This document shows positions 1 to 39,318 of a stretch of DNA of 39,606 nt, piece by piece. Every line of letters begins with the position of its first letter. Positions within the stretch are counted from its first letter, which is position 1. Origin of the DNA: Octopus sinensis (Eukaryota). A program made the translations under genes and the position numbers. The notes under the pieces were generated by a model. The model saw nothing but the letters and a program-made list of their open reading frames with translations. It was not told the DNA's origin and did not search any database. Location of the stretch: contig NW_021831739.1 in assembly GCF_006345805.1 (NCBI RefSeq), positions 1 to 39,606 of the forward strand, written 5' to 3'.

Positions 1-584
1 TGGTTTTAATATTTTAACGAGCTTTTACGAGTGATTGACTCTATCATTATGACTGATGTCAATTCCTTAGCCACCCCAATTAACTGGAAGGTTGATATTT
101 CTGACAGTCTATTTGTAGCAAGGTGAAGACTGTATTATTGTCCCTTATCTAAGCGATCAGTTCAGTTTCTGAAAAATATTCTGCATAATCAGTCGTGTCA
201 TATTGCCCTAAATTATTTAACTGTGAGAATTCTTCGTTTGTCTGATGATATTAACAATAAAAATGATACCATGTCTGCAAACGAATTGATTCCCAGTTTA
301 TAAGAGGTGGCATTTTTTTCAAATTCTAAATTATGTTGATCAATCAGAGCTAGGTTATTTTGGAAGATAATGCGTCTTTTGAAAAGTTCATTCTGGCTGT
401 AAATTTTTGCTACCAAATTAAGATTTATGACAAGCCAACAATGTTGTTTAATAAAATTTAGCCATTGTTGATTACTCTTTGAATCGTATAAACTAGTTAA
501 GTTAGTTTCATGTTGGCTGATTTTTATTCTTAGCATTTAAAAGACATTTTTTGTGAACATGAGTTCTAAAATGAGTAGATTCAT
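1..584 (-). CDS. Cathepsin L-like papain-family cysteine protease, 5' part (I29 propeptide); left boundary set at window edge
   Basis: ERFNIN-like motif (ELFKRRIIFQNNLALIDQHN) and GNFD-like motif (GINSFADM). Removing GT-AG introns 529-558 (30 nt), 410-439 (30 nt) and 242-269 (28 nt) gives an ATG at 584 and the canonical FADM-TNEEF. Exon structure below about 150 is unresolved and the frame meets a stop there. Confidence 0.8.
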
Positions 585-2042
585 TGATAAGAAATAGGTT
601 AGATATGAATAGCTTAATTCAAATATATTATTAGTTTTTTAAAATAGCCAAACAAAAAATAAACCATTAAATAGCAATAAAATAAATAATTTTTTAATGT
701 TTTAGGAAATCTGCAATTTCTTCGTTCTTTCGATCCCATTGATCACGACAAATCTTGTACAGCACAGGAAACAATAAGAGTTATTAGTTTGGTCCATTTT
801 CTTTTATCTAAGCGACGTCCCGTAAACATCAAAATCGTCCTGTCCATAACTCTTTCCCTACACTCCGAAGGTCTCTATCTATTATCTATATCGGGGGTGT
901 CAAAAATACGGCCCGCGGGCCAGAGCTGGCCCGCAGTATAAGTTTAACAGTGTATTTAAATTCTAAAATTATTATTTAACACCAAATAAAAATACAAGAA
1001 TCTAGATTCTAGAATATAAATAAAAATAAAAAAATTATTACTTAAAAAATAATTAATTGTTTTTTGGATTTATATTATTCTAATTGTTTTTCTTGTCTTG
1101 TGCTGATGTCTTTTTCAACAAAACGCAAAGTTGATACAGAATGCAGATCTTTTCAAAAAAAGTGGAAACTGGAATATTTCTTTGCCGATTTAAATCGGAA
1201 ACCTACTTGTTTGGTCTGTAGACAAGAAATTTCAGTTGTCAAAGAATATAACATTCGACGACATTACCAAACCCACCATGCTCATGAATACAATAATTTG
1301 ATGGGAAAAATTAGAAAAGAGAAGTACGATGCACTACTTGCATGTTTGCGGAATCAGCAATCTTCTTTTTCCAAATTTCGAGATGATAGTGAGGCAGCTG
1401 TCAAAGCTAGCTACGTTATTTCTCGGGAAATAGCGTTAGCATCAAAACCTTATTTTTATAAAAACATGTATTATGAAAGCTACTGAAATCATATGTCCTA
1501 TTAATCGGCCTGATTTCGCAAGCATTAGCCTTACAAGAAATACTGTGGCAAATAGGATTTCAGATCTTTCCACTGATTTGCACAATCAACTCAAGACGAA
1601 AATTAGTTCATTCATTACCTTTTCCATTGCTATTGACGAGAGCACTGACATTATGGATGTGGTTCAGTTAGCTATATTCATTCGTGGTGTGGACGAGAAT
1701 TTGACGGTCACAGAGGAGTTCCTTGATATGATACCTATGCTGGACACTACTACGGCAAATGATATATTCAAATCTCTCGTCAGTGTGTTGGATAACTTTG
1801 GAGTGGAATGGGCACGTGCTGTTAGTGTGGCTACAGATGGTGCTCCATCAATGATTGGAAAAAAAACTGGCGTTGTGGCTCAATTCAGAGAGAAGGTACA
1901 GGCTGTAAATGGAGGATGTGATTTTTGGATATTTCACTGCATTGTGCATCAGGAGGTACTGTGCACCAAATCGTTAAAAATGGACCATGTAATGGAGGTG
2001 GTCGTCCGGACAGTAAATTTTATCCGTGCCAGAGGTCTATAT

Positions 2043-4289
2043 CAGGGTTTCTCAAGTTTTTTAACGTCGGGGCCAAATCGATAATTAACCATTGTCTTCG
2101 GGGCCGCAGAATAAATTAAATTAAAACTTTCATTAACTTTTAACTAATTTTTTTTTAGATTCATTTTTTATTCAGAAACCGAGATAGTTAGTCTTAATTA
2201 ATTAAAGGAAAATGACTAAAACGAAAAATTGTTAACTAAAACGAAAAATTGTTAGCTATTTTAACTAATTGTTAACTAATTTGTCATAACACGGAATATA
2301 GGAGGCACATGTAGATCGCAAAAGCTGGCATAAGTGATTATCAGTCAATTTATTTCGATATTTATTTTTTATGTGAATCATTTTACTGAAAATTGACTCA
2401 CATAAATAAGTGGATCCGAACATTGAAGCATATTTATAAGCATTTATGAGTATATTCGGATATTTTTCTTTGGGAAGTGAACTATAAAATTCCATTAAAT
2501 TTTCAATCTTTTGCACTGAGGTAAATTGCACATCTGATTGAAGGTCTATCAATTCTAATTGGAGTGATGGCGGAGCATTCTTAGGATCTATATTGAATGG
2601 TGCTGCAAAAATTTTCATTGATGGCAAAATTTCATCAAAATTCTTAAAATAAACTAAATTTTAATAAACCTTAGAACGTTTTTCAAATTCAACAATAAGG
2701 TGACTGATAATGGTAGTATATTTTTCAAATGAACCGTTAGCTTTATTTTCACTCAAACAAGTAAAATGAATTGTATCTTTGAGCATTATTTGATCCCTCC
2801 AAAGTTTTAATTTTGATATAAAAGAAGCAATAGATCCATAGAGTTGATGGCAAAATTTATATTTCCCCTGTAATTCACAATTTAACGACGATAAATGAGA
2901 GGTTAGATCTACCCAAAAAGCTAAATCGGCAATCCACTCTTTACTGCTCAACAAATCATGGTATTTGTGGTCTTTAACAAATTCTCTTATTTGAGGGAGT
3001 AGTTCATAAAATCTAACTTCTATTCAAGCAAATATACCTTTTGAGGCACGCGGCACGACTCAACCATCGAACAGTGGTATGGTAAAGCACATCATTATGC
3101 ACTGTGTCAATTTCCACTAACATTTTTTTAAATCTCCTGTGATTGAGAGATTTACCGCGTATCCAATTCACAATGGACAACACCGTACTTATTACATTTT
3201 GCATTTTAAGTGACTTTGCGATTATATTCTCCTGATGAATGATACAATGTTGCCAAAATATAGGATCAAGATTTTTTTCAAGTCTCCATTCTGAATAAAG
3301 TCCATGAAACCCTTTATTACGACCAATCATATTCGCCCCCCCATCAGTACATATGGAAATTATTTTGGAAGGATCAATGTCAAATTCTTTAATACTTTCA
3401 AGGAATTCGTTAAGTACATCCATTCCTTTTGTAGTGCCTTTTAATGAACGAAGAGAAAAAAATTCTTCAGAAATTTTAAAATCCGAAGTGACACCTCTAA
3501 TGCATACGACCATTTGTTCGGTATCAGAGATATCTTTACTCGTGTCGACAGCAAAAGAATGATATAAAAAATCTTTCGATGTTCTATAAAAATTATTTTT
3601 AATAGTAAAGAACTTGATTAGCTGACGGGCAAGGTCCTCAAAAATACATTCTATTCTTCTTGTAATAGTATCATTACTTAATGGTAATCGTTTTGCAATA
3701 TTTTGTATATTTGACGGACAACATTCATCACAAAAAATGGAAATAGCAGTTTTAATAATTTCTCCGTCAGAATAAGGTTTCATATTTACAGCAAGAAGGT
3801 GGCTAATTTTATAAGACGTTAATAACTGATGCTTATTTTCCACTGGTTTAAATATTGAGGACTGATTTTTAAATGACGTCTTTAATATATTGAGTTTTTT
3901 TTTCCTTGACTCTCCGAGATATAAATTGTATATTTCGGAGTGCTTCTTATAATGACGTTCAATAGTATAATTTTTCAATGAATTAATGACACAGTTGCAT
4001 ATCAAACAAACAGCTTTACCATTCAGTTCAACGAAAAAAAACTTTTCTTCCCATTCAATTTGAAATTCTCTATTTTCTTGAGATAATGTTCGATATTTCT
4101 TTGATGGCATGAAAAAATACTCAACCTGAAATATATTTACAAACACGTGTAGTTAAAATATTATCTTTAATAATATTAATTTACAATTAATTTTATATCC
4201 AAAATTTATTTTAAAGTTTGGAAGTCGGGGCCGCAAAAAAGATTCTCGGGGCCGCATGCGGCCCCGAGGGCCGCACTTGAGAACCCCTG
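2043..4289 (-). mobile_element. hAT (Buster-type) DNA transposon, nested and apparently complete
   Basis: TIRs CAGGGTTTCTCAAGT and ACTTGAGAACCCCTG (14/15 match). 8-bp TSD GTCTATAT (2035-2042) / GTCTATAC (4290-4297). Subterminal GGGCCGCA repeats. Confidence 0.96.
2265..4110 (-). CDS. Intact four-exon hAT transposase, 587 aa after splicing
   Basis: GT-AG introns at 3584-3613 (30 nt), 3013-3037 (25 nt) and 2643-2669 (27 nt). 1846 - 82 = 1764 nt, open from ATG 4110 to TAG 2265. BED finger, VDTS, TDGG, CIIH, RWLS and YLCESIFS all present. Confidence 0.9.
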
Positions 4290-5504
4290 GTCTATACCAC
4301 CGTCAATTTGACAATTTTCTGAGTGATATTGGTTTTACTCACGGACTACCATATCATTCCGAGGTAAGGTGGTTAAGTTGAGGTTTGGTATTGAAGAGAT
4401 TTTTCGATTTAAGAGAAGAAATCAAACACTCCATGTTTGCAAAAAACAAACCTTTACCAGAATTGGAATCTCTTAATTGGTTGATAGACTTGACATTTTT
4501 GGTGGATATTACAGAACACCTGAACACGCTTAACAAAAATTTGCAAGGACGAAATAAAGTTGTTACACAATATTTCGAATGCACACAAGCTTTCACCATG
4601 AAGCTAATGTTATGGGAGACACAATTGACAGTGGGAAACACTGAGCATTTTTCTTGTTTAAAAAGTGTAATTTCCATCACATCGAATGTTGATGTGAGTC
4701 GCTATAAAGTGAAAATAACAGGATTACTTCAACAGTTTGAGACACGTTTTGAAATTTTTCGTGAACTTGAAAAGGAATTTACTGTTTTTCGATCACCATT
4801 CGCTGCAAATATTACACATCTTGCAGCTAACTTACAATTGGAAATTATTGATTTGAAATCTGACTTAGATCTGAAGAATAAATTTACCATTGTGGGCTTA
4901 GACACCTTTTATAAATTTCTCTTGCCGAAGTACTTCAACTTAACAGCCTTAGCTGCGAAAATCTTGTCAATGTTTGGAAATACATATCTATGTGAACAAC
5001 TTTTTTCTTTAATCAACATAAACAAAACAAAATTTCGATCAAGGCTCACCCACACTCATCTGAGTGAGATTCTAAGATTGACGGTAACTCAGGATTTCAC
5101 TCCAGATATTGACGCTATTATGAAGAAAAAAAGATGTCAAGTTTCTGGAACATATTTTAATTATAAAAATTAATAAATGTGTTGTTAAATGATTTTAAAT
5201 TAAAATTATAAATTAAAAATCATAGTACGAATTTTGTTAAATCAAAAATAAATAGTCTGGCCCGCGGAGCCTAAAATTTTTTAAATCCGGCCCGCGGGCT
5301 ATTGTCTTGCCTGAAAGTATTGTCTTGCCTGCTTTCAAAAACAGCAAAATTAACAAATATTGATTCCGACGATTCAAACCCTGATTTTTATTTAACATTA
5401 ATGCCTATTACCATGGTATCTGTTTTTTCTTTGTTTCCGGTCCCCATCTGTTTTGAATTTCCAAGTTACACACTTGTAACATGTTTTTAATCATTATCTC
5501 TTCA

Positions 5505-13965: not shown

Positions 13966-15229
13966 TAAGCAACCATAACCATATTTTCCCCCAATTGAAC
14001 CTCCAACAGCTCTCTGAGCTTACTGAAATACTCAACGAGCACATTCTACAATCAATACAAGATATTTAAACAAACATTCGTCGATTTCTCTCTGGCAGAT
14101 ACTCAGAAATATTCCAATTCATCATAATCTAAGCACATTTGCTAATAGAACGACTCACAGCCATGTTTCCCTCAGTGAAAGACTCGGAAGTCAAGGAACC
14201 ATAGAAAGTAGACTCTCCTTGACTGTCACATTCACTCACTCGACCAATAATACCCCCATGGTTAGCCTATTCCAATACACAATCAAATGCAGTACAGTGT
14301 CGTGCCAAAGAAGGGCAGTCCAGAGACGTGAGCAGACAATGTCCAATGAACGAAATACAGAACAACTGAGAATACGCTTAGTCATATATTCCGGATAATT
14401 AGTGGCCTCTGACATGTTGAACTTGCCAGTCGATATCACTACTCTTGTATAGTCAGAGTAGACCACAACAACCCCCAGACTACAGATTTGAATAATAAAC
14501 TGGATATTATTTGGTGGTAAACCTGAATAATCAATTTTTTAATCAAATTAATAATCATTCTCACATAGGCTGGCTCATAAAATAAACTTTCGGAACACCA
14601 CAAAACATAATTATGAGCCTTCAAATGTCTTGCAAAGAAGAGATCAAACCCAAAGGAATACACGTCCGGGGGGTAATTTCCTATTGGGATGTGCAGATAT
14701 CGACAATGCTCAGTCAACTCCTTTCAAATAAATACAAATCAATACATTTTTTGTCTTTTTCAATTCAAAAAAATGTCGAATCATTGTTCTAGCTTCCACA
14801 CGCTGCCAATCCAAGACAGAAAAAAGAGATGGACTGTAATTGAACCACACTAAACAACCTATCCTGCGACTTGTGTTTCATGAAGGCACTTTTTCTCTAA
14901 AAATGGCAGGAGGACTTATAAACCTGAACAAGACTGAATTACAAGACAACAAAGGGATTTGGACAACGCGGAGATGGACTTGTTAAAAGAGCGAGAAACC
15001 TTATCCATTGAAGTCTCCGCTTTTACGGTAAAAACAAAGTCAGGAAAGTCATTTGTCGACTCATTCGAATTCTCCGATCTTATAAAACTCAACACTCGAC
15101 CACAAACCTAACCGAGAAGTAAACAGTCAGTATCCTCTCCCTCGGAACGTCTGTTTATATAGAAACGCCTTTTCATAGCGACTTGAAGACTGTGCAAATG
15201 CCCATTGACGTAACCATCACACTTGAATA

Positions 15230-16488
15230 ATATGCCATGGATGGTTATACAAATCTGCTGGGGACTTTCCCGCCTTTGATGTATCACGTGGGTCAACTTG
15301 AAAACAAAAACATTTTTTCTTTGATTTATTTTTTCGGGCAATTCGTGATGCTTCGACGTGATAAATCAATGGATTGGCCATAAAACACAAATTCTCTCTC
15401 AGTGCTTCAACCTTGTCAGTCAATGATGATAAAATCTTTAATAAAATTAGCAAATAAAAACCTCGTCGAAATTAAGCACCTGTTCAATATCGACTTTATT
15501 TTCAATACAAATTGAAAACTTCAAGACCTCATTTAAATTCCCATCAACCAATCAATTGTACTATTTTCCTATAATGTTGGATATGACACTAACGCCCTGT
15601 ATAGAAGGCACAATAATGTCAGTACAGATGGACTTTATTCTCCCAGGGTTATCAAAGAATGTTTTATATGGATAATCTGCCCCCACAGTGGACAAGTAGT
15701 ACAATCCACTCGAAGCCAGCTATTTAACTATACAATATCAGCCCCACATAATCACATTCCACCTCACACGGCAAAGGGAGGACCAGTCTCCAACAGACTC
15801 AGCAAAGGGGAACACACAGGCGTGAAACTCGTCAGTATATCGAGACAAGTACAACTGAATGCACTCACAAATATGTCTCTGTACTATCATCAGCACTTTT
15901 TGAGTACTCTACTATATACTGGGCACACTGAGGGGAATCATTATTAACGAGTTAAACCCTTCCATCCACAGTCCCATGTTGTCCTCAAGAAAATTTCAGT
16001 CCACAGTTCATCCGAGCGAGATTCATAACAATAACTAAAATAAAACACAAATTAAACCGCTTAAAAATTAGGTTAACCACTCTAAACAAATCTTTGACAC
16101 TTGTTAAAGAAAGTGCGGGAAGTTTGGCCACAATCGAGGTGAGCAAGGCGGGCCAGTTGTCATGATTCTTGATTTTATGTCGTTTATGGAGTCTGGTGAG
16201 ACCTTATTCCGGGAGTCGTCGTTCTGGGAGTTGTGGAGGGGGGTATGCGAATTTGTAGTGTTTGGTCACGTAGTTTTTGAGGGTTATTGCAGCCAAAAGG
16301 CGGGTATTCTCAGGGAAATTACAATTTGATGTTATTTGAAGAAGAATAGAGCCATAATGTGCTAAATTTGACTCTGCTTGGGTTATGAACTCAGTGGCTG
16401 TGGTTTGGAGGGAGTCTGTTACCTGTGCTTCTGACCTGTGGGTCATGGTGGCAGGCGTTCTCGAGATTGGAAGCAATCTGGACGACAT
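15230..16488 (-). pseudogene. CSE1L: Exportin-2 (CSE1/CAS) copy with several internal deletions
   Basis: AAITLKNYV, NWPALL, SDELWTEI, FLEDNMGLWM, ICECIQLYLSRYTDEF and YKTFFDNPGRIKSICTDIIVP occur in CSE1 order, with in-frame stops. Boundary below about 15560 is uncertain. Confidence 0.82.
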
Positions 16489-17964
16489 ATTGGTCTCCCA
16501 TGTTCTATATATAAGGACACACAATAAACACGATGTATTAAATTTTATTTAATGATTTATTTTATTTTTTAGTTTTATTGATATTTTGAATTAATTAGTT
16601 ACTTGAATTTTACTTGTTCACAATTTATTATAATTTTTATTTTTAAAATTACAAAATTAAAAATTGTTTTATTGTAAATAATTATAAAAGTAATCCCACT
16701 ATATAGACTACGAGATATCAACTAATTTTACGGCTGTAAAATGCGAAATTTGTAATCAATAAGTTTAAATTTATTTAACCTGGTAATTTAGTTAGAGGCA
16801 CCCTATTTTTTAACTAAAAAGTTTTAATCTTTACTTTTCTGTTCGATGCCGTCCTTTTGTCATTAAAAATGGACTACTGTTTGACCATTCAGAAGAATTT
16901 ATTCTTAATAGACCATCAAGACCAAGTTTACGATAAAAATCAAATTTTGAATTTTTGCAATAATAGAAAAATAAACTGTTAAAGCACAAATACTAAAACT
17001 ATTTCATTTATTTTTATCTGTTCAATTTAAAACTGGCCGATAGTGTTAATTTGCTAATAAACAAGTATGTAGTAGCATCTACTAAAGAAGAACATTGACA
17101 TTGTGCATTTTTTACTTTATCAAAACCGTGGTTATTTGTTGACAGAAAGTGACAATTTTTGACCTAATAAATAATCGTTTTTATTGAATTAAATTATTTT
17201 TAAATGTGAAAAATCAAAAATATATAAAAGCAATTTTTTTAATTCTTATGGGAAAATATATACATTAATCTTATTTTACTTATACCTTCAATAAAAAACC
17301 TAATCTGTCATAAGAATTAAAAAAATTCTACAATTTTCAAAAAAGTGTTTCAGATATAAAAGATTAAATGTTCTACAGACAACTTTAATGCGGACTCAGA
17401 TTTCTTTGCTATTCACATAAACATAGTCGGATGTATTAAGTCTGAATCTTAAAACATCACGGAAAAGGCAAAGAAAAAGTAGAATTATAGTTAAAACGTC
17501 TGAAAAGTAATTCTCTATTCAAGAAGTAAAGATTTACCACAAAAGCAATAATTTAGTCGAATTATAGCTTTAAAATGTTTTAAATCTAACGATATCCCAT
17601 AGATGTAATTTACTTAAAAGTCCTGAAAGTTGGTCTCCTTGAATAGAATTTACCACTAATATAAACCGATATCATTATTTCAGTCAATTTTTAACCCAAG
17701 ATGTAACTACCTCAAAGAATTAGACCTGTCTCGGTTGAGTGCATCACAAAAGTAGTCGTCAAACTAGACTAGCCGTTGTTTAAACAAGCTGCCAAAATTT
17801 TCGGATGATTAGCTAGGGAAATGGTACCCCGAGTGTCACACCACATTGAGACTGCTCGTGGAGCACGCCCAGCTGACTGTCAGTTCAAACTAGAAGAGGA
17901 ATGCCCTCATAATAAAGGTTGGACAAGTTACATTTACTAGAAAAAGATGCCAGTAATATGCCTC

Positions 17965-18905
17965 TTAGCAGAACTGGAGTTGAATAAAAATGTGAACCTT
18001 CCAGCGAGCACCACAAACATTGCAAAGACAGAAGGTGGTCATTGACTCGTCTGCACTCCGTGTCTGCAGTTGGTTGTACAACACGTCGCTTTATTTGCAC
18101 TTGCCCCACTTAATTTGGGTGGTGTGTGTCCCCGTGGTCACCGCCAACTGAGATTTGTTGATGGAGTTCTTCGTCAATTGGGCCACCAGGGATTTCAACT
18201 CGTCGTTGGCCATTTCCTGCGGATTAGAGAATGAACAACCTCGGTGGTCATGTTGGCGAACTTGGCGGGGGAAATGACCATCGACACGACATTCCTCCGC
18301 AGTTCGGGGTTGTTGGGGTCCTTCAAATTAATGACACGACTCAGAATTCGTGTTTTGTAGCCCCAATCAGTCCGCGACTTGTGGTTGACAAAGATTTGTG
18401 AATGAGTGAGTTAAGGAGACTACAGGAGAAGGTGGGAATATAAAAAAGAAAATCCTCCTCGATCATTGCCGCAATGTCCTCCCAATGGGGTTCCCGCACA
18501 GTCCCCCCGCACTCAGGGCATCCAGCAGCATTGACCTACACTTAATCCGAGTTGGGTCGTCGGTGGGGGACACATACAGTCGGCCGGGTTGCATCTCCTT
18601 TGCTGGTTCGGAGTTAAAATGCTTCTTCCATTTCTGAATCAATGACTTTGAGAGCGACGAAATCACCCCATTTGCCGACTTTTTCCGGATCTTATTCACA
18701 GTCAGGCCAATTTTAGTTTTCTGTGAGTAGTCAATTAGGGGCATACGGCCAAAATGTCAAGGGTGAGTGCCAGTCCTTTCAATTGCCTCAGCAGAATGAT
18801 TATGCCTCCGTCGTCCTGCTATTATTATTCCACCAAACCATCACGCCATCCTCCATTAATGCATCCAACTCCTTCTTGACACTGAGGACAAAAGTTGTTT
18901 TTGTT
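17965..18905 (-). pseudogene. TCEA: Transcription elongation factor TFIIS, nearly full length but damaged
   Basis: [32 protein letters not shown]...CGARWK-FC*. Introns 18816-18838, 18721-18746, 18398-18453 (AT-AC), 18217-18239 and 17974-17997. Lesions: frameshift at about 18490, Cys>Trp and TAA in the Zn ribbon (KWGKCK*), DEP>DES, no clear ATG. Confidence 0.92.
18398..18453 (-). other. U12-type (minor spliceosome) AT-AC intron
   Basis: 5' ATTTTCTTT (consensus ATATCCTTT, two mismatches). Perfect branch site TCCTTAAC ends 12 nt before the terminal CAC. Removal restores IEE-E-IF in frame. Confidence 0.75.
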
Positions 18906-22199: not shown

Positions 22200-22700
22200 G
22201 ACCAAGTGGAAACATTTAATCTCGGTGAGTTTTTGAAAACTCGCACATGCTTCGATCTAATGCCTAAGAACTCACGTGTTCTTCACTGATCCTAAACGGA
22301 GTTCGGGCAGCCCCGGTATGTGATAAACTCACAATTATCGGTATATAACTGTAATCAATTTTTAGGAATGTTAACCATAACTGATTTAATGAAAATACTC
22401 CTCAAACATATCCAGGGACGAATGGAGGAGGAAATTGGAGATCTCACCGTCCGACAATGGCGGGGTACTTTTCTGTGGATTCTATTGGCTTAGAATTGAC
22501 TAAAACTTTAACTCAGCCTTTGAGTTTTATTCTTTCTAAACAATCTCTTTGGGAAGCAATTCACACTCTTCTGGACGCCCACGTTCATAGATTGCCTGTG
22601 TTTGACTCACTGGCCTTGTTTAATCCAATGCAAATAGTCACTTTGAAAAGAATACTTAAATTTATGTTAATTTCTGTAAGAAATTTGTCTAATGGTCAGA
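22200..22700 (+). pseudogene. PRKAG: AMP-activated protein kinase gamma subunit fragment (CBS domains), deleted and 3'-truncated
   Basis: FLKTRTCFDLMPKNSR, NGVRAAP, GMLTITD and VHRLPVFD...TLKRILKF. Deletion between SRVL and NGVRAAP; cut off by a hAT fragment at about 22728. Confidence 0.85.
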
Positions 22701-22727
22701 TGGGTGGGAATATCCCTAACCTGGTAA

Positions 22728-22945
22728 TTTAAACCCACGATGAACTCCAACCATCGCAAGTGCCCCATCTGCTGAACAAGCCATAATATTGTTAAGGGGT
22801 ATTTCATGTCTCCACAAATATTATTCGACAGTTTTAAAAATTGTTAACCCTCTTGTGTCGTGTTCAAGATGTTCAGAAAATAAAAATTCTTCTTGAATTA
22901 CATCATTTTGATTAATATAACGTAAGAATTAATAGAAAAGCACGT
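22728..22945 (-). mobile_element. hAT transposase fragment, same family as 34111-36200
   Basis: IQEEFLFSEHL...ACSADGALAMVGVHRGF. Clearly alignable at DNA level with about 35779-35965. Confidence 0.85.
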
Positions 22946-26679: not shown

Positions 26680-27400
26680 GCTTCATCATCGGCATAAATC
26701 GCTTCTTCTATTTTTCCAGTTCCTACATAGCGATCTCCAAGTATATTGTGAATAGTAGCGGTGACAGGGAGTCTCCCTGAGGAGTGCCTGTGTTTATTTC
26801 AAATTTCCCTGAGTATCTTTTTCCAACTCTCACAAGGAGATCTGTGTTAGATAGAAGAATTTGGGTCATTCTTAGACTCAATTCGTCAATAATCCCTTCC
26901 ACTACTGTCATCAGTTTGCTCCTGTTAACCGAGTCGAAGGCTTTTGATAGATCTAATTCCAGAATGTGGATGGCATTGCAATATCTTTGATGTGTCGCAC
27001 ATCTCTATTTGTAAATCCATTCTACATCAGCTTTTGATCTTCCTTCTCTGAACACACCTCGACTTTCGGGTAGTTATTCATGGGAAGGTCCTATTATTCG
27101 TTCCAATACAATGCTATCTAAGACTTTCCGTAGAGAATTTGATAATATAATTGGTCGTAGGTTTTCAACCGGTCCGTTGGGTTTATTTGGTTTTGGTATA
27201 GCTATTAGTATTCTTGTCCCCAGGTGTAAAGTTGAGTTAGTTGAAAACATTCATTTAGTAGTATAGCGATTTTTTGAAAAAGGGAGTAAGGACCATATTT
27301 TGAATTCTGGGTTTATTGTATCTAGTCCAGGGCTTTTGTCATTTTTTAGTTTTTAAAATGCTGTTTTTAATTCCAAAATTGTAATTAGTTCCTTTATGGG
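26680..27400 (-). mobile_element. RTE-like LINE reverse transcriptase fragment
   Basis: KSPGLD, IPKPNKP..NLRPI, DLSKAFDSV, GTPQGDSLSPLLF and IYADD, with stops and frameshifts. Confidence 0.88.
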
Positions 27401-29379: not shown

Positions 29380-31003
29380 AATTTGTTTTAAATGAAAATT
29401 CAAACTAATTGATAAATCAGTCAGCTGTTGAAGAGCAATGATTTATAAGGTCAATGTAATAGGCCAATTTATTTTGTACATCAATTAATAACAATTAAAT
29501 TTAACTAAAATTGTTTTTTTGAGCCATTCCTTAGCTCTCTAACTGCAATCTCTTGTCGACCATCACCAATCCGATCCTCACTCCAGGATTGTTGTTCCAT
29601 GGGCACGATTCCGTCGTCCTCAAATTGTCGTAGAGATTTTCGTTGTAGAAAATGAATGACTTCACTAACATCACTCTCTTGAAAGTTCATCCCATGTCGG
29701 TGCTTCACTAACATGCTTTCAAGAGTTTTCTTTAGTACAATAGATTGAATATATGCCCTCGGAATAATATCCACACCCAAAGAATCCATATATGATTTGT
29801 AGAATTTACTCACAATTCCCTCCCAAGTCATAACAATAGGGACAATTTTAACTTTCGCTTTGTATATTTGGGACAACTCTCCAGCGAGGAGGTCGTATTT
29901 ATGAAGTTTTTCAACCTCAACCACCTTAAGCATCTCCTGAGAAGTGATTCCGACCTCTACTAAAGTAATCTCCCTTGTCCTTTTATCGAAAACAAATATG
30001 TCCGGCTTGTTATGTTGTACTTTGATGTCTGTCATCAGCGTCGTATCGACTCTGATCTCAACATTCTCAGTTGTTACTATTGATTGGACTGAGTGAGTCT
30101 TCAGTTTCTTTGAATATGTGATTCCATATTTACGACACAGGTTTAAATGAAGACATCTCACCACCTCATTGTGACGGCGTATATAGGGTTTTCGGATCAA
30201 TATAATAATTTTTAAATTCAAAGAAAAAAAGATCAAAAAGAGTAAATTATCGTAAATATGCCGAATGTCCAGCTTTACTTCTTCCTCGAGAAGGTCTTGT
30301 AACGACCTTAAAGCCAACTTCATCCAAAAATATTAAAGCTTTATCATTATGCAAAGCTTCCAAATTTTTGAAATCTGTTGCATATTGTCTTCTGCTTTCT
30401 ATAGTTGAAACTGAGTTTCTTCTTTCTGGTATTAATGTAACTCTTTTAAGAGTATAATGAAAAGAATTTAAAGCCTTGGCGACGGTGTCCAGTGATAATT
30501 TTAAATTAAATTTGAAAAATATCCATTCGCTCAAATCCTTCAAAGATCTGGTGCAATCTTCATCAACATATTCAACTTATTCTTGTTTCATTTCGTCTGT
30601 TAGCTTAGACCTTCTATCTCCACCACGTTTAGATGGAATAACTTTCCCCGTTTAACTTTTTCAAAATACTGTTAACGGTTTGATATTTCTTGTCGAACAG
30701 TTGAGCAATATCTTTGGTTGAATATCCATCCAAAGATTTGTTTATTATACTTTCTCTCACATCATTAGATATTATTTGTCGGCGAACAATCGCTGGTTCG
30801 ATTGAATATTCAGAAGCATTTTGATTATGTAAATCCATTAACAGTAAATTCAGATCAATAAAATTTAAATTTTATTTAATTTAAAAATTATTTTGGTTCG
30901 AAAAGTTATTATATTGGTTCGAAAAATTATTATATTGATCCGAAAACCCTATATAATCACTATTTAACATTCTATTGCATCTCGTTGCCAAATGATCGAA
31001 AGG
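29380..31003 (-). mobile_element. R4/NeSL-like RLE non-LTR retrotransposon, 5'-truncated, split by a Tc1-like element
   Basis: DHLATRCNRMLNSDY (30955-31003) joins IRRHNEVV...KPDIFVFDK...EVGIT...KLHKYDLL (PD-(D/E)xK-type endonuclease) once 30184-30951 and one TA are removed. 3' boundary approximate. Confidence 0.88.
30184..30951 (-). mobile_element. IS630-Tc1-mariner transposon, internally deleted
   Basis: About 28-bp perfect TIRs TAGGGTTTTCGGATCAATATAATAATTTTT, TA TSD, and roughly 20-nt subterminal repeats at 30880-30945. HTH region, KRGG and IFLDEVGF present; rest of the DDE domain absent. Confidence 0.92.
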
Positions 31004-33559: not shown

Positions 33560-34110
33560 TTTTTTGCATACGCGCGATCACTCTGCGTCAATTGCAAAAA
33601 AAGCAACAAACAATTGACCATCTAGCCAAGCGGTGTGGTAGGATGCTAAACAGTGATTATCTCCGAAGACATAATAAGGTAGTTAAGTGTATTCATCTTC
33701 ACTTATGTCGAATGTATGGAATTGAAAGAACATTTAGTTGTGTCAATAATTTCGACCCAAAATGTCGAAAACAGAGTTGACAGGTCAATTATGACTGAAA
33801 GGAAAATCCAATTCAATAAACCTGACATTTTTATACATAACAAGAGGAAAAAAGAAATAAATTTAATCGAAGTGGGGATTACTTCACAAGATTGTTTAAA
33901 GCAAATTGAAATTATGAAATTTCACAAATACGATCTGCTTGTAAACGAACTATCGATCCTCTATGAAGCAAAAGTAAAGATTATTCCATTTGTCTTGACA
34001 TGGGATGGAGTTGTCTCAAAATTCTGTAAAAATCACATGGACAAGTTATCCATTGAAGAAGGAACTAGAACATACATTCAGTCGCTTGTGCTGAAAAGAA
34101 CGCTCTAGAG
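33560..34110 (+). mobile_element. R4/NeSL-like RLE retrotransposon fragment, truncated by the hAT at 34111
   Basis: CVNC...DHLAKRC (CCHC), RRHN, KPDIF, EVGIT, KYDLL and KRTLE. Confidence 0.88.
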
Positions 34111-36200
34111 CAGTGGTTCTTAACCTTTTCTAAGTCAACTCACCCTTTTGACACAATTTTGAAGTTTCAAAATTTCAGCGCCCCTTATTATCTAATTTAT
34201 TTTTTTAATTATAGATTTATTTAGGAATTTTTTTGACATTTGTCTCATTTTAATATTATCAAATATTACTTATTATTTTTAAGAATTAAAAAGAATATTC
34301 ATAAAAAACTTTTTTTTATTTAAAAATTTTGATGACTGCTTATGCCTGATTATCGATCGCTGCATATAACAAATTTTTGAACATTTGGAGGTTAAGGAAA
34401 CTGAATAAAAAGACAAAACTAAAGATAACACGTTCATTGTTCCTGTCTCGACGTATAACGGATCGATATGGAGAATCACGAAAGCTGATATGAACAGTTT
34501 GAACCAATTTCATCGAAATCAACTGAGAAGAATTACGAACATACAATTCCCAAGAAAAATATCTAACTCGACCTTATACAACAGATCTAACTCGAGACCG
34601 ATCTCCATGGACATCCTGGAATCCAGATGGAGACTTTTTGGGCACATATTGAGACTGGACAACCTCGCTCCGCCGAACATCACCATGGAAAACTATTTTG
34701 CCCAATCCAAAGGAGCTTTCCGTGGAAGACCTAGAGTCACTCTACGAAGACTTGACAGGAGTAAACAAAAGACTGAAAAGTGGGGACGATCTTGATTCAT
34801 TACGGACTATACCAAAGAACAGGGGGCATGGAAACGGATGTGTGTGAGGATACTGGCTGTGGCACAAGGAAAACTTAATTAAATTTATGATTTTCCGACA
34901 GTGCTATATAATAATTGTGCCTGATGAGAATTTGTTGGTTTCTTTATGTCAGCTTCACTATTTGACAGATTAAGTCTCAAATCTTCTTTATTCACAATTT
35001 GAAATTTATTTATTTTTTGGTCAAAATATTGGGGACTGCACTAGATCCTCTTTCAACTAGATATGTTGAAGGAAATCCTATTATGAGCGTTTCAACTTCA
35101 TTCCACTATTGAGGATATTTTTCTTCTAGTAATCCAGAATTGTTGAAATCCAAGTTTGTTGAAAATAATTTTAGCTTCAATGTCATATTTCAGATTTAAT
35201 AAATTTTATATTATTGCTTGAGATAAATTAACGATTTCAGTTTCAAATGGATTTATGTATCAATCAAAAAATTTTAAATTTGTTCGAAGCAAATTTTCAT
35301 GTCGTTTCTTAATTTTTTTTAGATGCAAACAAAAGCATTCGCAGTCCGAATCCGTCAATTTATCGACCTGATAAATATTGCTACAAAAAATAACCCCAAA
35401 TTTTTGTAGACTTAGAAAATTGATAAAAATCTTTTTCTTAATATTCTTTTCATACAGATGTAATTTTTGAATAAAATGCATGATAATTCCATTTTCATTT
35501 GTTAAATTAATATTGTTTCCCTGCAAGCTAATATTTACTTCATTAATTTTATGAAAAATATCTGCTAGATAAGCTATATCAGCTTTCAATAAAATCAATT
35601 TACTAAAACGATAAAGTAATAATAATTGCCTAAAAATTCTCTGCTCATGTAAATGACAAAATTCTAAAATTGAATGATACAATTGAAAAAATCGACGCAA
35701 ACAGTTTCCTTTTTAAAGCCATCTAAGATGGCTATGTAAAAGAAGTCGTTCATAATGCTCATCGTTTTGTTCACAAATAAACTCCAACCATCGCAGGTGC
35801 GCCATCTGTTGAACAAGCAGTAATATTGCTAAGGGGTATTTCATGTCTCCAGAAATATTGTTCAACAGTTTTATAAATTGTTAACCCTCTTGTTCCGAGT
35901 TCAATGTGTTCAGAAAATAAGAATTCTTCTCAAATTACATCATTTTGATTAATAAAACGTACGTAAATTAATACAAGTGCAACAATATCGGTAAATGTCG
36001 ATTCATCAATTTGAATTGAAAATTTTGTTGTTCTTAAAAATGCACAGATCTTAAGATTATTTAGCATTCTTGAGGGCTTCATTCCTTTATTTGTAAAGAC
36101 CTTTTTATACATGAGACACATAGGAAGTGAATTGTTATGGTTGTAAGGTATCATTCCAAACTTTAGATATTCACTCGAATATATTTTTATCAGACATCTA
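34111..36200 (-). mobile_element. hAT (Buster/Charlie, SCAND3/ZBED5-like) element, decayed; only one TIR retained
   Basis: TIR CAGTGGTTCTTAACCTTTT follows CTCTAGAG (nnnTAnnn). Motifs YLKFG, MKPSR, IDEST, TDGAPAMVG, RWL, IAYLADIF and terminal HQAQ. Large internal deletions. Confidence 0.88.
34430..34882 (+). mobile_element. RTE-like LINE 3' fragment inserted in the hAT
   Basis: FHRNQLRRI...RWRLFGHILRL...RGRPRVTL. Confidence 0.85.
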
Positions 36201-36233
36201 TAAAATATTAAATACAATTCACTCGAATATATT

Positions 36234-36410
36234 CCTCGGTATCCTCATTGCTCGGAAGAAAATGGATGCTCGCGAGTCCTCTTGGTTGAGGCAGAGGATC
36301 TCGCTCGCAATCGTGCGCGGGAAAGCGCAAGCAATCCGTTCGGCTGGGCTATAACCCCATGACTTCAATTATTATTTGAATATTAATTTGTTCAATTGTT
36401 AAAAAAAATT
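36234..36410 (+). mobile_element. CRE-like 3' tail
   Basis: DARESSWLRQRISLAIVRGKAQAIRSAGL* followed by an A-run at about 36400. No TSD found. Confidence 0.75.
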
Positions 36411-38111: not shown

Positions 38112-39318
38112 GACCAAAAGACAACCCGGCGTCCTACAGGCCAATATCTCTCCTCTGCGTCCTTTCCAAAGTTCTGGAAAAACTTATACTCAACCACATC
38201 AAACAATATCTCCCGGATTTGGACTTTCAACATGGATTTAAATGTGGTAATCAACCACCTCGCACCTTGTCACTTTGACGAACTTCATCTCAGATGGACT
38301 ATCTACCAAACCATATAATCAAAAAACGGTTATGTGCTCAGTGGATATCCATAAGGCTTTTGACTCCGTTCCAAAAAATACTGACCAGAAAATATACCTT
38401 AGTGGAATTCACCCAAGACTGAAAATGTGGCTAGCTAACTTCCTCAGCGGCTGAAGAGGCAGAATCCAACAAAACAATACAAGATCGATGTCTCGATACT
38501 TTCCAAACGGGGTCCCTCAAGGCTCCCCCCTTTCACCAGCCCTGTTCAACTTATTCTTATCGGATCTACCGCTACCAAACGACAAAGACTCAATCATTTT
38601 ATCATACGCTGACGATATCGTAATTGCTACCCGGAGCCGTGAGGTGAACACGGCGAGTACAAAACTGCAGAACCACCTTAATAATCTCGAAAGTTGGCTC
38701 TCGCTAAACCGACTATCAACGAGTTCGGAAAAATCGGTCACCACGCTTATGACCTCAGCAAGGAAGCTTGGGAAAACGGTGGTGAACCTGTACCTAAATA
38801 ACATGGAAATCCCGTTTCAAAAATCTTAGAAAATCCTCGGGGTGACTTACGACAGTCATATGTGTTTCTCTCAACAAGTCGATAATATTACTACGAGGTG
38901 CATGAAGAAACTGAACATCTTGAAAGTGTTTCTTCGTAAATGCAGACAGTGTATCAGCTTCCCCGCACTACAAGCCTTATACCGGCAATTCATCGAACCC
39001 TCCCTTAGCTATGCTTGTGAGGCGTGGGAGGGTTTATCAGTGGAACGAACCGCGCTAAAATCGAGAAAACTCAAGATCGCTTCCGAAAAGCACTGCAGGG
39101 ACCGAACGAACATCTACTCATCGCCCCATTTAATGAAATCTTGAGAAGAAACCTCGGGGCTACAGGGCCTAAAACACCACCACCGCGCCCTCACAGAATT
39201 GTGCCGGGACAAGGGAGGAGCAGCCGGCAAAGTTGAGGACCCTCCTCAGAGAAGCCGTCACCTGATTAATTAGTTTGATGTTTTGGACGGTGATCTTGGT
39301 TCTAATAATAATAATAAT
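38112..39318 (+). mobile_element. I/Jockey-group LINE, 5'-truncated RT pseudogene with (TAA)n tail
   Basis: SYRPISLL, QHGF, DIHKAFDSV, GVPQGSPLSP, YADD and KILGV motifs. (TAA)n at 39303-39320. 14-bp TSD AATTTAAAATTAGA at 38098-38111 and 39319-39332. Confidence 0.92.

What the first reader, a model, noticed from the sequence alone, without database searches (positions are those of the whole stretch)
2265..4110. Apparently broken hAT is a cryptic intact transposase with three host-sized micro-introns
Seen: the three separate ORFs join into one 587-aa frame on removal of 30-, 25- and 27-nt GT-AG introns. The joins give family-typical sequence (RWLSRAACLKR-FYELLPQIREF; EKRSK-NFDEIL). BED finger, D/D/E triad, CxxH, both TIRs and the TSD are retained. 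Two introns carry stops, so transposase production depends on splicing. Inference: a potentially autonomous element adapted to the host's minimal-intron spliceosome, where splicing could gate activity as in P elements. Standard annotation would call it dead.
Basis: partly seen in the sequence, partly recalled or inferred. Interest (0 to 1): 0.75.

Follow-up and report, generated by a model that had tools for sequence, protein, structure and literature searches.

The report
Parasite transposon with three tiny introns
This recently mobile cut-and-paste jumping gene, likely from a tiny kidney parasite (a dicyemid) sequenced along with an octopus, looks broken only because three 25-30-base segments interrupt it; one is missing exactly in public sequence contigs and all three are likely introns, so the element is likely intact, but nothing yet shows that splicing acts as its on/off switch.

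Summary
Confirmed. Removing GT..AG segments of 30, 25 and 27 nt gives a stop-free 587-aa Buster-type hAT transposase that aligns without gaps to intronless relatives (0 of 102 carry an insert at these sites). The element spans 2043-4289, has 15-bp TIRs, and has 13 near-full-length copies differing by 0-3 substitutions, 3 with an intact spliced frame. Intron 3 is missing exactly in contigs from two studies. A sister family (51% protein identity) keeps all three intron positions with different sequences, and a third family is joined at the intron-2 site. A TFIIS gene in the window has predicted 23-26-nt introns, so the contig likely comes from a dicyemid parasite, not the octopus named in NCBI. 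The P-element-like gate is unsupported. The intron-2 stop is not conserved in the sister family. Retained intron 2 in contigs could be antisense RNA. Intronless families thrive in the same contigs. Splicing of intron 1 was not seen, and no run is on record as RNA. The scan has already noted micro-introns in other transposon families of this genome (eight notes, different DNA). My searches found no paper on it. New variant of a known kind.

The parts
2043..4289 (-). Full-length Buster-type hAT transposon, 2247 bp (family A)
   Evidence: TIR-to-TIR span; 13 near-full-length copies at 98.4-100% in G000
4275..4289 (-). 5' terminal inverted repeat, 15 bp
   Evidence: 14 of 15 bases match the other end
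2043..2057 (-). 3' terminal inverted repeat, 15 bp
4290..4297 (.). 8-bp target-site duplication, right copy (one base changed)
   Evidence: 7 of 8 match; empty site seen in L108, L109, L113
2035..2042 (.). 8-bp target-site duplication, left copy, identical to the empty site, TA at positions 4-5
4228..4274 (-). Four subterminal GC-rich 7-mers (likely transposase binding sites; inferred)
   Evidence: two more at 2068-2107
3614..4110 (-). Exon 1 (497 nt): start codon, zinc finger C35/C38/H53/H57 at 3940-4008
3584..3613 (-). Intron 1, 30 nt, phase 2, in-frame and stop-free; splicing predicted, not seen
   Evidence: same site in family B (9 of 10 loci) and in family A subfamily loci L089, L090
3038..3583 (-). 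Exon 2 (546 nt): D179, D246, CxxH 279-282, RW 338-339
3013..3037 (-). Intron 2, 25 nt, phase 2; retention ends the protein at 355 or 365 aa
   Evidence: same site in families B and E; joined form seen for family E only; retained in X4 and X8 contigs of family A
2670..3012 (-). Exon 3 (343 nt)
2643..2669 (-). Intron 3, 27 nt, phase 0, in-frame stop; exact loss seen in contigs
   Evidence: 27 letters left out at 2643 in runs X8 and X12, two studies
2265..2642 (-). Exon 4 (378 nt): E544 at 2397-2399, hAT C-terminal dimerisation domain, stop
   Evidence: PF05699 over cut-off
3185..3210 (+). Antisense 26-nt GT..AG segment, missing in one X8 contig (likely cryptic splicing of antisense RNA)
892..5310 (+). 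Older, intronless, damaged SPIN-like hAT into which the element inserted (ends approximate)
   Evidence: PF18658; one frameshift, one stop, no intron called; 92-96% to its best other copies
17965..18890 (-). Context: host TFIIS-like gene with predicted 26, 26, 23 and 24-nt introns (a fifth of 43 nt is uncertain)
   Evidence: spliced alignment to P0319

Best explanation
This is a young, multi-copy Buster-family hAT transposon, likely autonomous and likely belonging to a dicyemid parasite co-assembled with an octopus genome, whose transposase gene carries three 25-30-nt GT-AG segments that are likely ordinary host-type introns (exact loss seen for intron 3, predicted for introns 1 and 2). Mechanism: the host's short-intron spliceosome removes the segments (seen in contigs for intron 3, and for the intron-2 site in family E; inferred otherwise). 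The 587-aa protein would bind the TIRs through its zinc finger and cut and paste with its D179/D246/E544 triad into nnnTAnnn targets (inferred from motifs, the Hermes-like fold of a 52% relative and fresh TSDs). The introns were likely gained in an intronless ancestor long ago: the intron-2 site first (families A, B, E), then sites 1 and 3 (A and B), with a separate gain three codons away in family F. They likely persist because this host splices short AT-rich GT..AG inserts at little cost, not because they regulate the element.
For: Stop-free 587-aa join. Gap-free alignment at all three joins; 0 of 102 homologues with an insert. Blind deletion test. Exact 27-nt loss at 2643 in X8 (organism C, study P3) and X12 (organism D, study P5). 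The X12 contig shares four diagnostic substitutions (2751, 2758, 2772, 2796) with an X3 contig that keeps the intron, so the same subfamily exists with and without it. An X8 contig runs from the exon-2 end straight into 30 bases identical to family E's post-intron sequence. Family B (65% DNA, 51% protein, pS 0.72 vs pN 0.32) has GT..AG introns at the same sites and phases: called in 9, 9 and 7 of 10 loci. 4 of 6 older family A subfamily loci keep GT..AG, two with the length changed. 11 other insertions have perfect 8-bp TSDs, 10 of 11 with TA at positions 4-5. Copies differ by 0-3 substitutions. 0 of 66 DNA matches lie on chromosome-scale scaffolds. TFIIS micro-introns in the window. Dicyemid median intron 27 bp (PMC6543705); only dicyemids and myxobolids had such introns among 51 animals (PMC13644364). 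DNA of tunicate-clade relatives has no intron at the sites it covers (L092, L094, L096, L098, L101).
Against: No run is on record as RNA and all are contigs, so strand and splicing rate are unknown. Intron 1: no joined form seen; the one bridging contig (X2) retains it. Intron 2 of family A is retained in 2 of 2 bridging contigs from organism C (X4 no. 12, X8 no. 9). Only 3 of 13 near-full copies keep the intact spliced frame; the rest have indels, 58 of 70 being single bases in runs, which may be assembly errors or real decay. The dicyemid identity is inferred, with no named dicyemid sequence to compare. A+B+E monophyly is only 'not rejected' (p-AU 0.164), and the larger quick tree put E nearer the tunicate elements. 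The search of G000 scored 40 of 262 candidates.
Confidence: 0.72

Rival explanations
1. Regulated splicing gates the element, as with P-element IVS3: intron 2 (or 3) is retained in most cells, giving a 355-365-aa (or 464-474-aa) protein that keeps the zinc finger and two aspartates but lacks E544 and the dimerisation domain, and may act as a repressor.
For: Intron 2 retained in both bridging contigs of organism C. In X4 contig 12 the gap arithmetic (29+26+1 = 56) fits loss of intron 3 while intron 2 stays (inferred). Retention of intron 3 truncates the protein in both A and B. P-element precedent (PMC9762592, passages).
Against: In family B introns 1 and 2 are in-frame and stop-free, so the intron-2 stop is not conserved. 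The same X8 run shows antisense splicing next to intron 2, so the retaining contig may be antisense RNA. Family E is joined at the intron-2 site. Depths are low (4.9 and 8.0). Intronless families are equally young.
Confidence: 0.13
2. The introns were gained at normal size in another animal host and shrank after the element entered the dicyemid lineage, or were ancestral to the clade and lost in the tunicate elements.
For: Family E shares the intron-2 site yet grouped with the intronless tunicate elements in the quick tree (SH-aLRT 94). Host introns shrank in place in myxozoans (PMC13644364).
Against: No relative outside G000's small contigs shows an intron at these sites: 5 metagenome loci checked as DNA over the parts they cover; the 102 protein homologues cannot show introns. 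The careful tree leaves E unresolved and does not reject A+B+E. Family F has its own site on a distant branch.
Confidence: 0.1
3. Some segments are not introns: intron 1 is a 10-residue coding insertion, or the copies are dead and moved by another family's transposase.
For: Intron 1 is in-frame and stop-free, and no joined form was seen. 10 of 13 copies have frame-breaking indels.
Against: Intron 1 keeps GT..AG across families A and B while its sequence and length (26-30 nt) change. It is 87% AT against 68% in exons. It falls in a predicted helix of the relative's model (150-172). A and B exons show purifying selection.
Confidence: 0.05

Closest known systems
Buster family of hAT transposons (TcBuster, SPIN, Mar; PMC12637253 and PMC3517528, passages read)
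   Same: 2.2-kb element, 15-bp TIRs, 8-bp TSD with nnnTAnnn consensus, zinc finger plus DDE domain, near-600-aa transposase, GTF2IRD2-like hits, young near-identical copies.
   Different: The five elements described in PMC12637253 have one ORF; this one has three introns. About 8 residues of the relatives' low-confidence C-terminal tail are absent.
Tunicate hAT elements (cluster P0002 with Ciona savignyi members; Clavelina lepadiformis P0063)
   Same: Nearest relatives outside this genome, 52-54% identical over the whole protein.
   Different: No intron in DNA at the sites covered.
Hermes transposase (PDB 8edg, 4d1q, 2bw3)
   Same: Top fold match of the model of relative P0002 (E 5e-11); the family profile matches the Hermes C-terminal region containing the catalytic glutamate (the residue's role is recalled).
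   Different: 13-16% identity; Ac-family targets (recalled). The window's own spliced protein was not folded.
Dicyemid and myxobolid ultra-short spliceosomal introns (PMC13644364, parts 1-2 of 3 read; PMC6543705 and PMC6736024, passages)
   Same: Size 25-30 nt, reduced GT..AG signals, AT-rich.
   Different: Host introns are described as shrunken at conserved positions; these sit in a mobile gene whose relatives lack them, so they were likely gained.
Drosophila P element IVS3 (PMC9762592, passages)
   Same: Transposase needs splicing; retention truncates it.
   Different: Regulated retention is shown for P and not shown here; the intron-2 stop is not conserved in the sister family.
Intron-bearing hATs Ac, Tol2, Restless (recalled, not read) and CACTA transposases (PMC4158355, search listing only)
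   Same: Introns in DNA-transposon transposase genes are well known.
   Different: Those introns are of ordinary size and lie in other families.

Membership tests
hAT superfamily | Short TIRs and 8-bp TSD | tested here: met
   15-bp TIRs; perfect 8-bp TSDs at 11 other insertions, 7 of 8 here
hAT superfamily | D/D/E triad, CxxH and RW motifs | tested here: met
   D179, D246, E544, C279xxH282, R338-W339; each column conserved in 100-102 of 103 aligned relatives
hAT superfamily | C-terminal dimerisation domain and Hermes-like fold | tested here: met
   PF05699 30.7 bits over cut-off 21.4; fold tested on the 52% relative P0002 only
hAT superfamily | N-terminal BED-type zinc finger | tested here: met
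   C35xxC38...H53xxxH57; PF18658 E 3.5e-6, 27.0 bits vs cut-off 27.3
Buster family | TSD consensus nnnTAnnn | tested here: met
   T at position 4 in 11 of 11, A at position 5 in 10 of 11; consensus from PMC3517528
Buster family | Transposase falls in the Buster clade rather than Ac or Tip | tested here: inconclusive
   Named hits are GTF2IRD2-like or hAT-domain proteins, which PMC3517528 places with Buster; no named TcBuster, SPIN or Ac reference was in my trees
Autonomous active element | Own transposase catalyses transposition | not testable with these tools
   Indirect only: intact frame in 3 of 13 copies, 0-3 substitutions between copies, fresh TSDs
Spliceosomal micro-introns | Exact removal at GT..AG in transcripts | tested here: inconclusive
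   Met for intron 3 in two studies and for the intron-2 site of family E; not seen for introns 1 and 2 of family A; runs are contigs of unrecorded kind
Spliceosomal micro-introns | Position, phase and ends conserved while the inside diverges | tested here: met
   Families A, B, E and family A subfamilies
Dicyemid genome | Host genes with introns mostly under 30 nt | tested here: met
   Predicted 26, 26, 23, 24 nt in the window's TFIIS; 28, 25, 23 nt in L070; only this gene family was tested
Dicyemid genome | Phylogenetic placement of conserved genes with Dicyemida | not testable with these tools
   No named dicyemid sequence was returned; window TFIIS is 45% to P0319 overall, while a chromosome-scale zinc-ribbon exon is 88% over 25 aa
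P-element-type splicing gate | Conserved truncating intron | tested here: inconclusive
   Not met for introns 1 and 2; intron 3 truncates in both A and B
P-element-type splicing gate | Tissue- or stage-specific retention | not testable with these tools
   Only unstranded contigs were available

The most novel reading that the evidence does not exclude
Buster transposons that settle in dicyemids gain sub-30-nt introns de novo, because the host splices almost any short AT-rich GT..AG insert (it even splices such segments from antisense RNA). The introns then lock a family of habitual horizontal jumpers into this one host lineage, since ordinary animal spliceosomes could not remove them, and inefficient removal of intron 2 or 3 doubles as a brake that yields a truncated repressor.
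Probability: 0.15. Interest if true: 0.75.

Novelty: new variant of a known kind. Interest (0 to 1): 0.45.

Why it matters
Intron gain is rarely caught with a known ancestral state. Here related transposon families in one genome carry 0, 1 or 3 micro-introns at mappable sites, so the order and source of gain can be tested, and the minimal sequence an animal spliceosome accepts can be assayed with short reporters. It also gives a clean test of whether introns restrict horizontal transfer. Practically, it shows that proteins filed as octopus 'GTF2IRD2-like' likely come from a parasite's transposons, and that annotation with a normal minimum intron size misreads live elements as truncated.

Tried and rejected
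No RNA holder was listed for the element; this is no evidence either way. X9 and X10 did not bridge any intron. No cover of intron 1 in X4, X8, X9, X10 or X12. The indel table was cut (25 rows hidden), so joined forms at low depth in X3 or X6 could be missed. A 22-nt gap in X2 near 3682-3703 is not GT..AG on either strand and was treated as a plain deletion. Aligner calls dropped as artefacts: a 26-nt 'intron' in L087 (its family shows a 6-codon insertion there), a 58-nt one near the 3' end of the alignment in L073 and L075, and the 24-150-nt pieces in L094, L096 and L098, which tile nested insertions. L050 and L055 were first run on the wrong strand and rerun. Depletion of cryptic sense-strand GT..AG pairs: none (4 observed vs 4.3 +/- 1.8 in synonymous shuffles). 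Host-to-parasite transfer: the chromosome-scale family and the small-contig families share at most 68% DNA over 570 nt, so no recent transfer among the 31 loci compared. A ciliate host with TAA/TAG read as glutamine was considered and rejected: the 587-aa frame has no internal TAA or TAG, and TFIIS ends in TAA at its conserved end. A single-sequence PDB search gave only chance hits. A 21-nt GT..AG in the 5' leader (4146-4126) is retained in X4 contig 19. Three papers I wanted (Buster classification, Restless splicing, piRNA control of P splicing) could not be retrieved under the ids I recalled. Not-in-print rests, none of which listed a paper on introns in dicyemid or Buster transposases; subscription journals, Repbase and all supplements were not seen.

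Full report
Observation. The element runs from 4289 to 2043 (2247 bp), with TIRs matching at 14 of 15 bases. It sits inside an older plus-strand hAT. Three other copies of that host element show the empty 8-bp site, identical to the left duplicate; the right duplicate differs by one base. The joined protein has C35/C38/H53/H57, D179, D246, C279xxH282, R338-W339 and E544, columns conserved in 100-103 of 103 aligned proteins.

Is it more than chance? The joined protein aligns to full-length relatives (34-53% identity) with no gap at any join, while keeping intron 1 opens a 10-residue gap. 0 of 102 homologues carry six or more extra residues at any of the three sites. In a blind scan of all stop-free deletions of 0-45 nt near each site, homology chose 30, 25 and 27 nt, and the GT..AG placement lay at or within 2% of the best score.

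Copy number and age. A DNA search of G000 gave 66 matches from 40 of 262 candidates scored; 13 are near full length. They differ from the window by 0-3 substitutions. 3 of 13 (L001, L002, L011) keep the 587-aa spliced frame. The other 10 have indels, 58 of 70 events being single bases in runs, which I read as likely assembly error but cannot separate from decay. Eleven other insertions have perfect 8-bp duplications, 10 with TA at positions 4-5, the Buster consensus given in PMC3517528 (passages). A model of the 52% relative P0002 (pLDDT 93) matches Hermes best.

Whose DNA? NCBI files the unspliced read-through as a 365-aa GTF2IRD2-like protein of Octopus sinensis. But none of the 66 matches lies on the chromosome-scale scaffolds that appear. 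A TFIIS gene in the window has predicted introns of 26, 26, 23 and 24 nt, and a second zinc-ribbon exon on a chromosome-scale scaffold is much closer to the reference (88% over 25 aa, against 45% overall) with no micro-intron called beside it. Among 51 animals, only dicyemids and myxobolids have such introns (PMC13644364, parts 1-2 of 3 read). Dicyema sp. has a median of 27 bp (PMC6543705, passages). D. japonicum was isolated from octopuses (PMC6736024, passages). A co-assembled dicyemid is therefore the likely host; this is inference, not a phylogenetic placement.

Splicing evidence. 8 of 13 listed runs were laid; all are contigs, none on record as RNA. Contigs of X8 (organism C, study P3) and X12 (organism D, study P5), about 97% identical to the window, lack exactly 27 letters at 2643. 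The X12 contig shares four substitutions with an X3 contig that keeps the segment, which fits splicing better than an intronless variant. An X8 contig aligned from 3038 continues into 30 bases identical to the sequence after family E's 31-nt intron, so that family is joined at the intron-2 site. Against: family A's intron 2 is retained in both contigs that bridge it with 31 or more letters on each side (X4 no. 12, X8 no. 9). Intron 1 is retained in the one bridging contig (X2 no. 2) and never seen joined. X8 also lacks a 26-nt segment at 3185-3210 that is GT..AG on the plus strand, so antisense RNA is likely present and spliced, and retained sense introns cannot be read as regulation. The 56 gap letters of X4 no. 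12 split 29+26+1 by depth, which fits intron 3 plus an antisense 28-nt GT..AG at 2713-2740 plus one base; this is arithmetic, not a listed joint.

Related families. A protein search of G000 (73 of 4979 candidates scored) and my own spliced aligner show the following. Family B (65% DNA, 51% protein identity, pS 0.72, pN 0.32) has introns at the same three sites and phases with different sequences, called in 9, 9 and 7 of 10 loci. Family E has only the intron-2 site (2 of 2 loci; one also covers site 1 without an intron). Family F has a 27-nt intron three codons past site 3 (3 of 3 loci). Families C/G and D on the same small contigs, the outer element, and the chromosome-scale family have none. 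A and B are sisters (96/95); F lies on a distant branch; E is unresolved, and A+B+E is not rejected (p-AU 0.164), though the larger quick tree put E with the tunicate elements. Five metagenome loci related to the tunicate elements show no intron at the sites they cover. The simplest reading is gain in steps from an intronless ancestor; where the introns came from is not shown.

Mechanism. Shown: frame, motifs, ends, young copies, exact loss of intron 3 in contigs, shared intron positions. Inferred: host identity, splicing of introns 1 and 2 in this family, autonomy, and gain inside the dicyemid lineage. The gate model predicts a conserved truncating intron. Retaining intron 2 in family A gives 355-365 aa without E544, but in family B (L036) introns 1 and 2 are in-frame and stop-free; only intron 3 truncates in both. 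Equally young intronless families coexist. For P elements regulated IVS3 retention is shown (PMC9762592, passages); here it is not. I give the gate about 0.13.

Comparison and novelty. By ends, targets and motifs this works like, and very likely is, a Buster hAT; placement against named references was not tested. The five Buster elements in PMC12637253 (passages) have one ORF. Introns in other DNA transposases are well known (recalled; PMC4158355, listing only). Searches listed no paper on introns in dicyemid or Buster transposases; supplements and subscription journals were not seen. The scan's own unchecked notes report the same pattern in other hAT, Merlin and Ginger families of this genome, none matching this DNA; I had reached the dicyemid reading before opening them. 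Verdict: real, a new variant of a known kind, interest 0.45.

Noticed in passing
window 3185-3210 (+) and 2713-2740 (+): Antisense GT..AG segments of 26 and 28 nt; the first is missing in an X8 contig and the second fits the gap arithmetic of an X4 contig. This suggests the host splices chance short GT..AG segments from antisense transposon RNA.
   Followed up: partly
window 17965-18890 (-): TFIIS-like gene with micro-introns and one in-frame TAA at 18091-18093; copies L062 and L063 have no stop called there, so this copy may be damaged or mis-assembled.
   Followed up: partly
window 892-5310 (+): Older intronless SPIN-like hAT hosting the insertion; one frameshift and one stop; many copies at 92-96%.
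   Followed up: partly
window 213-536 (-): Cathepsin propeptide (I29) fragment with GT..AG segments near 20-30 nt by eye; the gene seems to continue towards the window edge.
   Followed up: no
window 14236-14538 (-), 16204-16548 (-), 22385-22732 (+): Host gene fragments: DUF1744 (DNA polymerase epsilon-type, recalled), importin-beta N-terminus, CBS domain; they look like pieces scattered among repeats.
   Followed up: no
window about 34900-36250 (-): Second, decayed hAT-like element; weak alignment (32%), no intron called.
   Followed up: partly
window 26723-27004, 29505-30576, 33683-34795, 38455-39144: Fragments resembling non-LTR retrotransposon reverse transcriptases and endonucleases and a Tc1/IS630-like transposase (by eye from translations).
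   Followed up: no
window 2215-2282: A 20-bp tandem duplication and short repeats at the transposase stop; the protein ends about 8 residues earlier than its relatives, as does family B.
   Followed up: partly
window 4126-4146 (-): 21-nt GT..AG in the 5' leader, a possible fourth intron; retained in the one X4 contig covering it.
   Followed up: partly
L033, L034, L051, L078 versus L032, L035, L036, L037, L055: Family B intron 2 comes in 21-nt and 26-27-nt forms among otherwise near-identical copies, a recent change of intron length by one short repeat unit.
   Followed up: no
L038-L049, L056: A young (98-100% identical), intronless Buster-type family on chromosome-scale scaffolds, likely active in the octopus itself.
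   Followed up: partly
runs X3, X6 (organism B), X4, X8 (C), X10, X12 (D): Relatives of this family occur in runs labelled as three other organisms, with some contigs 95-99% identical: shared parasite, close parasite species or transfer between them.
   Followed up: no
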